A DNA stretch of 53,480 bases from a virus. Taxonomy: Duplodnaviria > Heunggongvirae > Uroviricota > Caudoviricetes. The stretch lies in the IMG/VR virus record IMGVR_UViG_648028025_000004; one strand, given 5' to 3'. The position numbers are program-made. Position 1 is the first letter of the stretch; each line of letters begins with the position of its first letter. Below are positions 24,001 to 27,000 of the stretch, piece by piece.

Positions 24001-27000
24001 TGGAAAGGGCTGATGACTCGCCGCGAGATTGAGCGTGAAGTCTGTTTGTGGGGGCAACAATGAGCAGGGTAACCGTTATTATCTCCGCTCTGGTTATCTG
24101 CATTATCGCCTGCCAGTCATGGGCTGTTAATCATTACCGTGATAACGCCATGACCTACAAAGAGCAGCGCGATAAAGCCACATCCATCATCGCTGATATG
24201 CAGAAGCGGCAACGTGATGTAGCAGAACTTGACGCCAGATACACAAAGGAGCTTGCTGATGCTAATGCGACTATCGAAAGTCTCCGTGCTGATGTTTCTG
24301 CTGGGCGTAAGCGCCTGCAAGTCTCCGCCACCTGTGCAAAGTCAACGACCGGAGCCAGCAGCATGGGCGATGGAGAAAGCCCAGGACTTACATCAGATGC
24401 TGAACTCAATTATTACCGTCTCCGAGGTGGAATCGACAAGATAACCGCGCAGGTTAACTACCTGCAGGAATACATCAGGACGCAGTGCTTAAAATAATTT
24501 TAATTTCACTGAAATTTAACAAGTGACTTTCAGGAAAATGCCTCGCAGATGCGGGGCATTTTTGTACCGGTATTTCACCGCGCACCGCAGCGCACAATAA
24601 ACACCGAACCTGACCCTTTGGAATGGGCCTTTGAGGATACCAGTTAGTGCTGGCGAGCCTCGGTGGGCTGGTTTCCTGTGCGGCAAAGGTTCATTTCAAA
24701 GAAGCAGGCAACGCCATGAATGAATTAATTGCGAATCATGACTTCGACTTTCGCCAGTTAGTTACCGCAGCAGAAGGTCAACCGGTAACTGACACCTTCC
24801 AGATTGCCAGGGCATTTGGTAAACGCCATCAGCATGTGATTAGGGCTATTAAATGTTTGAGATGTTCTGAGGAATTCTCGACAACCCATTTTTGGGCCGT
24901 CGAGAAAATCAATGACTTAGGTATTTTTGACAAGAAACAGATTTACTACCGCATGGACTTTAGTGGCTTCGTTATGCTGGTTATGGGATTTAACGGGGCA
25001 AAAGCCGATGCTGTTAAAGAAGCCTATATCAATGCGTTTAACTGGATGTCAGCAGAACTCCGTAAGTACAGCGAAAGTTATGAAGCAGAACGTAACGCCG
25101 TAATGCTGGAGTACATGAAAGAGAAGGATGTCGCCAGCATGTCAGGCCGTCTGCTCAATCGCTGGGGGAGAACGAAAAAACCTCAATTGCTTGCAAAGCT
25201 GGAACGTCTGGAGAGACAGGGACAGTTTTTATTACCGGGATTCGATAAAGGTATTCAAGCCTGACACATTATGCGCTGTATCGTCGCCGTATTCCCGCAT
25301 TAACCATGACCGTAGCCCGACGGGGAATTCCTTCTGCGTGAGTGTGCGGGAATAATCAAAAACGATGCACACCGGGTTTTACTGTGCTGACAGACGCAGG
25401 GTTACCCTCATAGTCGCTTTTCCGGTGCGATGGTGGAAGAAACCGGGATGTTCATCCATCATCACTTTGGATTGATGTATATGCTCTCTTTTCTGACGTT
25501 AGTCTCCGACGGCAGGCTTCAATGACCCAGGCTGAGAAATTCCCAGACCCTTTTTGCTCAAGAGCGATGTTAATTTGTTCAATCATTTGGTTAGGAAAGC
25601 GGATGTTGCGGGTTGTTGTTCTGCGGGTTCTGTTCTTCGTTGACATGAGGTTGCCCTGTATTCAGTGTCGCTGATTTGTATTGTCTGAAGTTGTTTTTAC
25701 GTTAAGTTGATGCAGATCAATTAATACGATACCTGCGTCATAATTGATTATTTGACGTGGTTTGATGGCGTAGATGCACGTTGTGACATGTAGATGATAA
25801 TTATTATCATTTTCGTGGGTCCTTTCCGGCGATCCGACAGGTTACGGGGCGGCGACCTCGCGGGTTTTCGCTATTTATGAAAATTTTCCGGGATCCATGT
25901 CCGGTTTCTCTTCAAGTTAACTATATGAAAAATATAAAAACAGGTCTTCTGTGAACCGGACATGAACAAAAAACAGACATGTAAACCGGACATGACCGGT
26001 TTTGTTGTGATTGTGAGGTGAGAGTTTTTGCGAGGTGAGGAGTGGCTACGCAGACTGAAGTTGCCAGGCATTTAAGTCTGACCGATCGCCAGCTTCGCAG
26101 ATTGCAGAAATTACCGGGTGCCCCGGTCTCGAATAAGCGAGGGCAACTGGATCTGGATGCCTGGCGCGATTTTTACATATCGTATCTGAGAAGAAGTAAA
26201 AACGATGTGCCTGATGGCGATAGCGAAGAAGACTATGAAGAGAAATTGCTTATTGCCAGATGGGAACTGACAGCAGAACAGGCTGTTACACAGCAGTTAA
26301 AAAATGAGGTGTCAAAAGGAAAACTGATTGACACCGGGTTCTGTATTTTTGCCCTCAGTAAGCTGGCAATGGCGTTATCCAGTACGCTTGATTCCATCCC
26401 TTTATCCATGCAGCGACAGTTTCCTGATTTAACACCGCGCCATCTTGACCATCTGAAAACCCTTATTGCTAAGGGGGCAAATCAGTGTGCGCGGGCAGGG
26501 GATAAATTACCGGATTTACTTGATGAATATATCAGAGCAACAACTGAATAATATGATGAGCGCTGTCACAACTGCATTACAGCCCCTGATAAGGGCATTG
26601 CCGGTGACGCCAGTTGAATGGGCTGATCAAAATTATTATCTGCCTAAAGAATCTTCATATGGTGAGGGCGAATGGAAAACGCTGCCATTCCAGATCGCCA
26701 TCATGAACTGCATGGGGAATGATCAGATCCGCACTGTTAATCTGATTAAATCTGCCCGTGTTGGCTATACAAAGATGTTGCTGGGGGTGGTCGGGTATTT
26801 TATTGAGCATAAATCCCGAAACAGTCTGCTTTTTCAGCCCACGGATTCTGCCGCTGAAGATTTTATGAAGTCTCACGTGGAGGCGACGATTCGGAACGTG
26901 CCATGCCTGAAAGACCTTTCCCCATGGCTGGGTCGTAAACATCGTGACAATACTCTCACGCTGAAACGCTTTTCATCGGGCGTCGGTTTCTGGTGCCTGG

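What the first reader, a model, noticed from the sequence alone, without database searches (positions are those of the whole stretch)
25845..26000. Lambda-identical cosN joined to a different cosB repeat set
The cohesive-end sequence and adjacent bases match the lambda left end as I recall it, but downstream the sequence diverges and carries three CCGGACATG repeats (one inverted) around an AT-rich spacer. The Nu1-like small subunit has a divergent N-terminal DNA-binding region and a lambda-like C-terminus. This suggests a packaging specificity different from lambda, with matched changes in protein and site.
Basis: partly seen in the sequence, partly recalled or inferred. Interest (0 to 1): 0.4.

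Follow-up and report, generated by a model that had tools for sequence, protein, structure and literature searches.

The report
Fourth lambda-type DNA packaging recognition site
This is the packaging start site of a lambda-like prophage: it keeps lambda's cutting site but pairs a different set of protein-binding repeats with a matching, different DNA-binding head on the small terminase, a recognition type common in pathogenic E. coli that I did not find described.

Summary
Window 25847-25891 equals the first 45 bp of the lambda left end, and cosQ is also lambda-like. Beyond that, three exact copies of AACCGGACATG occur at 25896-25906 (inverted), 25954-25964 and 25984-25994, and nowhere else in 53 kb. 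The layout is a canonical complex cosB: R3, an IHF-like site, an inverted R2, then R1. The small terminase (26042-26551) has a Nu1-like C-terminus and an N-terminal domain that is unrelated in sequence but predicted to have the same winged helix-turn-helix fold.

In 100 non-redundant relatives with this N-terminus, 93 carry the core TCCGGTT just upstream of terS. The base 5' of the core tracks helix residue 20. It is G whenever residue 20 is Arg (6 loci, two lineages) and T otherwise (87 loci). cosB plus terS codons 1 to about 73 behave as an exchangeable cassette.

This is a packaging specificity distinct from the characterised lambda, 21 and N15 types. It occurs in 1167 of 5426 complete E. 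coli genomes. The mechanism is ordinary and the specificity class appears undescribed. Binding has not been tested.

The parts
25817..25829 (+). cosQ core GGGTCCTTTCCGG (packaging termination subsite)
   Evidence: Same core as lambda, starting 30 bp upstream of the left-end bp 1. GGGTCCTTTC is invariant in all 11 aligned complex class-A cos regions.
25847..25858 (+). cosN 12-nt cohesive-end sequence GGGCGGCGACCT (left-end bp 1-12)
   Evidence: Identical to lambda and phage 21, as are the flanking bases.
25859..25891 (+). cosN-to-cosB spacer, covering lambda's I2 segment (lambda bp ~18-50); identical to lambda up to bp 45
   Evidence: 45-bp identical run from bp 1. The I2 extent is taken from PMC4856287.
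25896..25906 (-). R3-type TerS site: AACCGGACATG on the minus strand (CATGTCCGGTT on plus). The TCCGGTT core is at left-end bp 54-60.
   Evidence: Exact 11-mer. Invariant in 49 unique close relatives. The core sits at bp 53-61 in all 12 complex class-A cos regions, close to the lambda R3 contact zone at bp 55-63 (PMC9026076).
25918..25930 (-). I1-type IHF-like core TTTCATATAGTTA (minus strand), followed by an A/T-rich tract to about 25945
   Evidence: Best match to WATCAANNNNTTR between R3 and R2, with 2 mismatches, the same count as lambda's AAACATTAAGTTA at the corresponding place. Relatives L012, L013, L014, L016 and L103 have perfect consensus matches at the same coordinate, bp 71-73.
25954..25964 (+). 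R2-type TerS site AACCGGACATG, inverted relative to R3. The core starts 54 bp after the R3 core.
   Evidence: The R3-to-R2 core spacing is exactly 54 bp in all 12 complex class-A cos regions.
25973..25981 (+). Degenerate copy ACAGACATG; probably not functional
   Evidence: Lacks the AACCGGA core and varies among close relatives (TAGACACTA in PhiR12).
25984..26002 (.). R1-type site. An exact AACCGGACATG on the plus strand (25984-25994) overlaps an opposite-oriented near-copy CATGACCGGTTT (25991-26002), giving an imperfect palindrome.
   Evidence: families D2, I3, I6. Present in PhiR12 and, without the palindrome, in L019. Absent from L013-L018 and L103, so it is likely accessory, as R1 is in lambda (PMC4669245).
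26042..26260 (+). terS codons 1 to about 73: the N-terminal winged helix-turn-helix DNA-binding domain (predicted recognition helix residues 15-22, DRQLRRLQ) plus an acidic linker. With cosB this forms the exchangeable specificity cassette, about 25892-26260.
26042..26551 (+). terS (small terminase, 169 aa, GTG start); C-terminal part is Nu1-like
   Evidence: PHROG phrog_57 'terminase small subunit' covers the full length.
26523..28451 (+). terL (gpA-type large terminase, 642 aa)
   Evidence: 66% identical to lambda gpA over 639 aa. Pfam GpA_ATPase and GpA_nuclease. RefSeq annotation.

Best explanation
The region is the cos site of a lambda-like prophage. It combines a lambda-type cosQ/cosN with a cosB of a different recognition class.

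Inferred mechanism, by analogy with lambda. The N-terminal winged helix-turn-helix domains of a TerS dimer bind the inverted sites R3 (25896-25906) and R2 (25954-25964). IHF bending at the A/T-rich site between them brings the two sites together. R1 (25984-26002) adds stability. Through its Nu1-like C-terminus, TerS holds the gpA-like TerL over cosN, 50 bp away. TerL then makes the staggered nicks that create the lambda-identical 12-nt ends, and packaging proceeds rightward.

Specificity resides in a cassette made of cosB plus terS codons 1 to about 73. The site core is AACCGGA. In this prophage's sub-type the next base is C (AACCGGAC), matched by Arg at helix residue 20.

Shown: the sequence features, their architecture, their conservation, the co-occurrence and covariation of site and helix, and the mosaic boundaries. 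Inferred: physical binding, the role of IHF, and discrimination against lambda, 21 and N15 DNA.
For: 1. The repeats are non-random: three exact 11-mers against 0.02 expected.

2. The architecture is canonical. The R3 core is at bp 54-60, an IHF-like core at bp 72-84, the inverted R2 core at bp 108-114 and R1 at bp 138-144. Phage 21 (annotated R3/I1/R2/R1) and lambda have the same order at nearly the same coordinates.

3. All 12 complex cos regions of this class keep the R3 core at bp 53-61, the IHF core at bp 71-73 in eleven of them (bp 83 in L019), and an R3-to-R2 spacing of exactly 54 bp. This holds although the cosN sequences and spacers differ.

4. Among 49 unique close relatives, R3, I1, R2 and R1 are invariant or nearly so, while the R2-R1 spacer varies.

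5. 93 of 100 non-redundant loci with this TerS N-terminus carry TCCGGTT upstream of terS. This includes Aeromonas phage phiARM81ld, where CATTTCCGGTTCCGGTT lies at bp 52-68 of the deposited left end.

6. The base 5' of the core is G at 14 of 14 sites when residue 20 is Arg, and T at 139 of 139 sites when it is D, N, T, S, E or K. Arg20 occurs in two unrelated lineages. In the second lineage (L124), an intragenic inverted copy also carries the C variant (AACCGGACATG, coding Pro-Asp-Met), where relatives have AACCGGAA (Pro-Glu).

7. Loci with a near-identical TerS C-terminus but an N15-type N-terminus carry GGTTGTTGT repeats, the experimentally defined R3 of N15 (PMC4669245).

9. PhiR12 phage records with K-12 or E. 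coli C listed as host carry the same cassette at 96.6% identity, which suggests it works in viable phages.
Against: No binding, footprinting or packaging data exist for this class.

The structural models are of moderate confidence (pLDDT about 83 for residues 1-50). Foldseek E-values are all above 0.1. Profile-profile comparison with the lambda/21 N-terminus gives only 12% probability.

The window's IHF-like core has two mismatches to consensus.

The Arg20/G covariation rests on only two independent lineages. One Glu20 locus (L184) has an intragenic AACCGGAC.

R1 here points the same way as R2, unlike lambda and 21, where R1 points the same way as R3.

Whether this particular prophage is packaging-competent is unknown.
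Confidence: 0.8

Rival explanations
1. The cassette is functionally a phage 21-type specificity. The repeats are diverged 21 R boxes, and this terminase and 21 terminase would cross-package.
For: Phage 21 R2 (AAGGTCCGACATGAAA) and R1 (TTTCATGTCGGGCCTT) share GACATGA with the window repeats. Right-justified, 9 of 13 positions match. The order and coordinates of R3, I1 and R2 are nearly the same.
Against: The 21 core TGTCGG/CCGACA is absent from the window cosB. The part conserved across this protein class is AACCGGA, not CATG, and most relatives have AAATG or AAGT instead. The N-terminal domain has no BLAST similarity to 21 gp1. In lambda and 21, single base pairs (bp 56 and 59) are enough for more than 1000-fold discrimination (PMC4669245).
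Confidence: 0.07
2. The repeats bind some protein other than TerS, or form a regulatory element for the late operon. Candidates would be a regulator such as the upstream Rha or YlcI/YnfO-family gene products, or a satellite-encoded redirecting protein like Rpp.
For: Genes for Rha and a YlcI/YnfO-family (DUF3950) protein lie immediately upstream. PICI satellites are known to use lambda-like cosN with a foreign cosB read by Rpp (PMC6739421, PMC9026076).
Against: The sites follow the TerS N-terminal class, not the upstream genes, which differ from locus to locus: DUF1378, lysis genes, KilA-N, DUF1398, a peptidase. They covary with a residue of the TerS helix. A complete terS, terL, head-tail joining and portal operon follows directly, so this is a phage cos and not a satellite cos.
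Confidence: 0.05
3. The repeats are non-functional remnants or a chance cluster in a decaying prophage.
For: Many STEC prophages are defective (PMC2669165). The degenerate fourth copy shows that some decay is tolerated.
Against: 0 of 100 shuffles give three copies. The sites are invariant across 49 unique relatives while the neighbouring spacers vary. Positions are conserved to the base pair across genera. The sites are present in phage records with laboratory hosts listed.
Confidence: 0.02

Closest known systems
Bacteriophage lambda cos (cosQ-cosN-cosB) with gpNu1/gpA terminase
   Same: cosQ core, the cohesive end and left-end bp 1-45 are identical. The order is R3, IHF site, inverted R2, R1 at nearly the same coordinates. 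TerS has a Nu1-like C-terminal half (46% identity) and TerL is 66% identical to gpA. The DNA-binding domain has the same predicted fold.
   Different: The R sequence is AACCGGACATG instead of CGTTTCC-type; no CGTTTCC occurs in cosB. The TerS N-terminal 70 residues are not recognised by the Pfam Nu1 model. R3-to-R2 core spacing is 54 bp rather than 61 bp. R1 points the same way as R2.
Phage 21 cosB / gp1 (second characterised lambda-like specificity)
   Same: Identical 12-nt cohesive end with a different cosB and a matching TerS N-terminus, the same logic as here. The R boxes share GACATGA. R3, I1 and R2 sit at nearly the same coordinates.
   Different: The 21 core CCGACATG differs from CCGGACATG, and TGTCGG is absent here. 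The gp1 helix-turn-helix (PRTIERWQSQ) is lambda-like and unlike DRQLRRLQK.
Phage N15 (simple cosB) and Monarch-type prophages (complex cosB), the third characterised specificity
   Same: One TerS recognition class occurs with two cosB architectures. The class found here likewise has simple forms (tandem TTCCGGTTCCGG 16-30 bp before terS, plus an inverted copy about 173-182 nt inside terS, like N15's rR2) and complex forms such as this window. Some N15-type prophage TerS proteins share 80-100% identical C-terminal coding sequence with this one (PMC4669245).
   Different: The N15 R site is GAGGTTGTTGTT and its TerS starts MAVLLNKSDMASS...; neither is present here.
PICI cos sites read by Rpp-TerS heterodimers (EcCICFT073)
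   Different: Here the foreign-looking domain is part of a full-length TerS with a TerL-binding C-terminus and is followed by terL and head genes. It is a phage's own system, not a satellite hijack.
Aeromonas phage phiARM81ld, Pseudomonas phage LPPA33, Escherichia phages vB_EcoM-705R4 and PhiR12_1 to PhiR12_5
   Same: Sequenced phages whose TerS has this N-terminal type (45-96% identity) and whose cos region carries the TCCGGTT core. The PhiR12 phages have the same complex cosB at 96.6% identity.
   Different: All except PhiR12 have other cosN sequences, a simple cosB, and T rather than G 5' of the core. Their records annotate no cos subsites.

Membership tests
Lambda-like cos site (cosQ-cosN-cosB) | cosN with the 12-nt 5' cohesive-end sequence and its flanks | tested here: met
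   GGGCGGCGACCT at 25847-25858, and 45 bp identical to lambda from bp 1.
Lambda-like cos site (cosQ-cosN-cosB) | cosQ about 30 bp upstream of the nick | tested here: met
   GGGTCCTTTCCGG at 25817-25829, 30 bp before bp 1.
Lambda-like cos site (cosQ-cosN-cosB) | Complex cosB: R3, IHF site I1, inverted R2, R1, with R3 about 50-65 bp from the end | tested here: met
   Cores at bp 54-60, 72-84, 108-114 and 138-144. Conserved in 12 related cos regions.
Lambda-like cos site (cosQ-cosN-cosB) | Actual nicking at cosN and packaging from this site | not testable with these tools
   Needs virion DNA end mapping or a packaging assay.
Lambda packaging specificity (cosB-lambda / gpNu1) | R sites of the CGTTTCC type | tested here: not met
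   No CGTTTCC or GGAAACG in 25892-26041.
Lambda packaging specificity (cosB-lambda / gpNu1) | gpNu1-type N-terminal DNA-binding sequence | tested here: not met
   Pfam Phage_Nu1 hits lambda residues 1-70 at 145 bits but gives no hit on window residues 1-72 at E<=10. BLASTP aligns only residues 73-164.
Phage 21 packaging specificity | R boxes with a TGTCGG/CCGACA core and the gp1 recognition helix | tested here: not met
   The core is absent and the N-terminus does not align. Only GACATGA is shared.
N15/Monarch packaging specificity | R site GGTTGTTGT and a TerS starting MA(V/F)LLNKSDMASS | tested here: not met
   The motif is absent and the N-terminus differs.
Nu1-family small terminase (Pfam PF07471) | Whole-protein score above the gathering threshold | tested here: met
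   67.4 bits against a cut-off of 30, but the match covers only residues 61-150, which is model positions 73-163.
MerR-like winged helix-turn-helix DNA-binding domain, as in lambda TerS and Rpp | Strand, helix, turn, helix, wing, helix fold at the N-terminus | tested here: inconclusive
TCCGGTT-class TerS/cosB (the family defined here) | TerS N-terminus MATQxEVAxHL...R..R.L together with TCCGGTT sites between cosN and terS | tested here: met
   The window has both. 93 of 100 non-redundant relatives have both.
PICI (satellite) cos with Rpp | cos followed by rpp in an island that lacks terL and head genes | tested here: not met
   terS, terL, head-tail joining and portal genes follow directly.

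The most novel reading that the evidence does not exclude
The TCCGGTT class is a widespread fourth lambda-like packaging specificity that has not been characterised. It would be split into sub-specificities by a single residue/base-pair switch: helix residue 20 Arg with G-TCCGGTT, against Asn/Asp/Thr with T-TCCGGTT.

The same switch appears at the aligned position in the classical pair. Lambda has N21 with TTTCC (T at bp 56) and phage 21 has R21 with TGTCG (G at bp 56, a genetically critical base pair). That points to a common recognition code for TerS winged helix-turn-helix domains.

Because 1167 of 5426 E. coli genomes carry the cassette, usually in two prophages, shared specificity could also underlie the trans-packaging of defective STEC prophages.
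Probability: 0.4. Interest if true: 0.6.

Novelty: new member of a known kind. Interest (0 to 1): 0.42.

Why it matters
Packaging specificity decides which DNA a terminase will encapsidate. It therefore decides which co-resident prophages, satellites or plasmids can be mobilised by which phage. This cassette occurs in about a fifth of complete E. coli genomes (O157, O26, O103, O111-type STEC and others), with a median of two copies per genome. Defective STEC prophages are known to be packaged by their neighbours, and shared cosB/TerS identity would explain which pairs can do so.

The natural variation found here has three useful properties. It occurs with both simple and complex cosB. It has a fixed 54-bp R3-R2 spacing. 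It shows a clean one-residue/one-base covariation. Together these give a ready-made set of swaps for testing how a TerS winged helix-turn-helix reads its site. It also offers an additional orthogonal cos/terminase pair for cosmid or in vitro packaging tools.

Tried and rejected
The first viral-contig scan was saturated by 96-99% identical E. coli prophages. Re-ordering the query alignments and looking up individual homologues supplied the diversity.

3. NCBIfam has no model for the protein.

4. Full-text searches for the site sequences and for a prior description found only unrelated p53-site papers. The two Virology 2015 papers by the Feiss laboratory that might list further prophage classes are not held, so prior mention there cannot be excluded.

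5. The fourth copy, ACAGACATG at 25973, was considered as a site and rejected. It lacks the core and is not conserved.

6. A TCCGGTT inverted pair at 45686-45706 was checked. It is the stem of a terminator-like hairpin followed by a T run and is unrelated.

7. One-mismatch matches to the 9-mer elsewhere in the window are at chance level: 15 found against 13 expected.

8. A phage 21-type specificity was considered and judged unlikely (see the rival explanations).
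Full report
**1. What is in the sequence**

The window reads ...GGGTCCTTTCCGGCGATCCGACAGGTTACG | GGGCGGCGACCTCGCGGGTTTTCGCTATTTATGAAAATTTTCCGG.... The bar is the position of the lambda left end.

- Left-end bp 1 is window 25847.
- The next 45 bp are identical to lambda.
- The 12 bp before the nick and the cosQ core (25817-25829) are also the same.
- Identity to lambda is 97-100% over 25817-25876 and then falls to background.

Downstream, CCGGACATG occurs exactly three times in 53 kb, all inside the finding. The true repeat unit is AACCGGACATG. It lies at 25896-25906 (minus strand), 25954-25964 and 25984-25994 (plus strand). 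Three matches compare with 0.02 expected, and no shuffle out of 100 reached three.

The 47-bp spacer between the first two copies is 72% A+T.

The gene that follows (26042-26551, GTG start, annotated the same way in RefSeq) encodes a 169-aa small terminase.
- Residues 73-164 are 46% identical to lambda Nu1.
- Residues 64-166 are 40% identical to phage 21 gp1.
- The first ~70 residues match neither protein.
- The Pfam Nu1 model matches the lambda N-terminus at 145 bits but does not see this one at all.

terL (26523-28451) is 66% identical to lambda gpA.

**2. Anatomy compared with lambda and phage 21**

The deposited phage 21 record annotates R4/cosQ, cosN, I2, R3, I1, R2, R1 and I0. I placed all systems on left-end coordinates.

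| System | R3 core | IHF-like core | R2 core (inverted) | R1 core |
|---|---|---|---|---|
| Window | TCCGGTT, bp 54-60 | bp 72-84 | bp 108-114 | bp 138-144 |
| Lambda | CGTTTCC, bp 53-59 | bp 74-86 | bp 114-120 | bp 155-161 |
| Phage 21 | TGTCGG, bp 55-60 | bp 74-86 | bp 112-117 | bp 155-160 |

The window's IHF-like core is TTTCATATAGTTA on the minus strand (25918-25930). It has two mismatches to WATCAANNNNTTR. That is the same number as lambda's AAACATTAAGTTA at the equivalent place, and the flanks align (TAACTATATGAAAAATATAAAAAC against lambda TAACTTAATGTTTTTATTTAAAATAC).

This is a canonical complex cosB, with two differences in R1. It points the same way as R2. It also overlaps an opposite-oriented near-copy (CATGACCGGTTT, 25991-26002), which makes it an imperfect palindrome.

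The repeats also resemble phage 21 R boxes. Phage 21 R2 is AAGGTCCGACATGAAA, and GACATGA is shared.

**3. Relatives: three N-terminal classes on one C-terminal scaffold**

A homologue search and alignment show similar Nu1-like C-terminal halves joined to three unrelated N-termini.

- **Class A:** MATQxEVAxHL... (this window).
- **Class B:** MA(F/V)LLNKSDMASSIGISVQAFDKWG.
- **Class C:** MxVNKK..., the lambda/21 type.

Class B is the N15 type. N15 gp1 begins MAVLLNKSDMASSLGISVQAFDKWG and its left end carries GAGGTTGTTGTT at bp 48-59. That sequence is the experimentally defined R3 of N15 (PMC4669245).

Class-B prophages L020 and L021 have GGTTGTTGT at R3, inverted at R2, and again at R1. They are therefore Monarch-like complex N15-type sites.

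Against L020, the window is about 40% identical (random level) from 25900 to about 26260. It is then 80-100% identical. The exchangeable unit is therefore cosB plus terS codons 1 to about 73, the same kind of segment that was swapped to build lambda-21 and lambda-N15 hybrids (PMC4669245).

cosN assorts independently. Class A occurs with the lambda cosN (window, L012) and with a different one (L013). Class B likewise occurs with both (L021 and L020).

**4.

I collected cos regions for class-A proteins from four sources:
- individual contigs;
- reference genomes;
- sequenced phages;
- IMG/VR viral contigs.

Of 100 non-redundant loci, 93 have TCCGGTT/AACCGGA within 230 bp upstream of terS. The adjacent coding DNA has 0.15 per 230 bp. 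The seven exceptions have divergent helices.

Two architectures occur.

*Complex sites.* Twelve loci, from Escherichia, Klebsiella, Salmonella, Citrobacter, Enterobacter and unassigned contigs, share these features:
- the R3 core at bp 53-61;
- an IHF core at bp 71-73 in eleven of the twelve (bp 83 in L019), a perfect consensus match in five;
- an inverted R2 exactly 54 bp after R3.

*Simple sites.* About 80 loci have tandem TTCCGGTTCCGG(TT) 16-30 bp before the start codon. Examples are Aeromonas phage phiARM81ld (bp 52-68 of the deposited left end, terS starting at bp 79), Pseudomonas phage LPPA33 and E. coli phage 705R4. Many of these also have an inverted AACCGGA at a fixed place 173 or 182 nt inside terS. 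This parallels N15's rR2 (PMC4669245).

Among 49 unique close relatives of the window, R3, I1, R2 and R1 are invariant or nearly so, while the R2-R1 spacer and the degenerate fourth copy drift. The repeats are thus present wherever the N-terminus is, and the refutation fails.

**5. Covariation at single-base resolution**

The base immediately 5' of TCCGGTT tracks residue 20 of the predicted recognition helix.

| Residue 20 | Base 5' of core | Sites | Loci |
|---|---|---|---|
| Arg (helix ...RQLRRL...) | G | 14 of 14 | 6 |
| Asp, Asn, Thr, Ser, Glu or Lys | T | 139 of 139 | 87 |

Arg20 occurs in two unrelated lineages.
- The first is the enterobacterial complex-cosB group containing the window.
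- The second is L124, a simple-cosB contig whose nearest relatives (63% identity) all have Asn or Thr.

L116, with an Asn20 helix, shares nearly the same cosQ-cosN sequence as L124. It has GCTTCCGGTTCCGG where L124 has GTGTCCGTGTCCGGTT. L124's intragenic copy is AACCGGACATG (coding Pro-Asp-Met), where relatives have AACCGGAA (Pro-Glu).

The caveats are that there are only two independent events and one exception (L184, Glu20, with an intragenic AACCGGAC).

In both the MAFFT and hhalign registers, class-A residue 20 falls under lambda N21 and phage 21 R21. Lambda R sites read TTTCC and phage 21 R sites read TGTCG. The T/G difference is at bp 56, which was shown genetically to be critical for lambda/21 discrimination (PMC4669245). 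This parallel is suggestive. It is my inference, and the hhalign probability is only 12%.

**6. The protein domain**

AlphaFold2 models of the whole protein and of residues 1-80 give the following elements:
- strand at residue 2;
- helix 4-10;
- helix 15-22;
- a loop or wing;
- strand at residue 36;
- helix 38-55.

pLDDT is about 83 for residues 1-50.

Foldseek finds the same families without significant E-values. Sequence searches of the PDB find nothing. The fold assignment is therefore probable, not proven.

Published work places the C-terminal end of the lambda recognition helix at the 5' side of R3 (PMC9026076). That fits residue 20, late in the helix, tracking the base 5' of the core.

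**7. Mechanism**

By analogy with lambda (shown for lambda, inferred here), the steps are as follows.
1. A TerS dimer binds the inverted R3 and R2.
2. An IHF-induced bend at I1 brings those two sites together.
3. R1 stabilises the complex.
4. The Nu1-like C-terminus holds TerL over cosN, where it makes the staggered nicks.

The constant 54-bp R3-R2 spacing and the fixed IHF position in all complex members fit a geometry-constrained loop.

The PhiR12 phage records list K-12 or E. coli C as host. They carry the same cassette at 96.6% identity, which suggests the cassette works in viable phages.

**8. What is known, and novelty**

The literature I could search describes three lambda-like specificities: lambda, 21 and N15/Monarch. 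It also describes the Rpp-mediated redirection to PICI cos sites.

I found no paper that mentions these site sequences. Asadulghani et al. 2009 aligned the cos and Nu1 of O157 prophages Sp4 and Sp14 with lambda, only to argue for trans-packaging (PMC2669165). Two relevant Virology papers are not held.

The protein family itself is catalogued: PHROG phrog_57, 'terminase small subunit'. I therefore file this as a new member (a fourth specificity class) of a well-known kind of system, not as a new kind.

The cassette is common. It occurs in 1167 of 5426 complete E. coli genomes, with a median of two and up to four copies per genome. It is 100% identical in strain E2865 and in several O26 and O103 STEC strains, and 99% identical in O157:H7 strains.

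**9. Verdict**

The mechanism is ordinary and the specificity class appears undescribed. The family-wide site/helix covariation is the most interesting by-product. Interest is moderate.

Noticed in passing
L020:943-1203 and L021:942-1203: E. coli and Klebsiella prophages have a TerS with an N15-type N-terminus. Their complex cosB is made of GGTTGTTGT sites at R3, inverted R2 and R1, around an IHF-like core. This matches the 'Monarch-type' description. One has the lambda cosN and the other a different cosN.
   Followed up: partly
L013:985-1040, L020:943-1000, L010:490-560, L005 and L006 around 2390-2450: A second cosN type follows a lambda-like cosQ (GGGTCCTTTCC): GGGGTCGGCAGACGCGCAAAAAC, with variants GTCTGCAGAC and GTCGGTAGAC. 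It pairs with either class-A or class-B cosB/TerS. The cosN/TerL module and the cosB/TerS-N module therefore assort independently. The cohesive end of this type was not determined.
   Followed up: no
terS nt 173 or 182 in simple-cosB loci such as L008, L009, L010, L124 and L170-L212: Simple-cosB relatives carry an inverted AACCGGA(A/C) copy at a fixed position inside terS, about 200 bp from the upstream sites. It overlaps Pro-Glu or Pro-Asp codons. This is a close analogue of the rR2 element described for N15.
   Followed up: partly
L124 versus L116 (IMG/VR contigs): Two contigs have nearly the same cosQ-cosN sequence but different TerS helices (RHLRRL against RQVRNL) and correspondingly different sites (GTGTCCGTGTCCGGTT against GCTTCCGGTTCCGG). 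This is a natural specificity swap.
   Followed up: partly
window 25983-26002: R1 is an imperfect palindrome, AAACCGGACATGACCGGTTT. It could be read in either orientation or by two domains at once. It is conserved in PhiR12 but not in L019.
   Followed up: partly
window 26011-26039: A direct repeat, TTGTGAGGTGAG and TTGCGAGGTGAG, 17 bp apart, lies just upstream of the GTG start of terS. The second copy supplies the Shine-Dalgarno sequence. The purpose of the first copy is unknown.
   Followed up: no
window 25787-25817: An A/T-rich inverted repeat, CATGTAGATGATAAT / ATTATCATTTTCG, lies just upstream of cosQ. It is conserved with lambda (ATGTAGATGATAATCATTATCAC). I did not establish a function.
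   Followed up: no
window 45683-45712: AAAACCGGAGTCCGGCTCCGGTTTTTGTTG is a G+C-rich hairpin followed by a T run, after the ORF ending near 45683. It looks like an intrinsic terminator. Its TCCGGTT/AACCGGA pair is coincidental.
   Followed up: yes
window 24647-25646: Between the lysis genes and cos lie a Rha-family regulator gene (24647-25264, plus strand; Phage_pRha and ORF11CD3 domains) and an oppositely oriented YlcI/YnfO-family (DUF3950) gene (25452-25646). The genes in this position differ among related prophages.
   Followed up: no
window 26523-28451 versus 25817-25891: cosQ, cosN and the following 45 bp are 97-100% identical to lambda, yet the TerL that cuts there is only 66% identical to gpA. 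The site is far more conserved than the enzyme.
   Followed up: no
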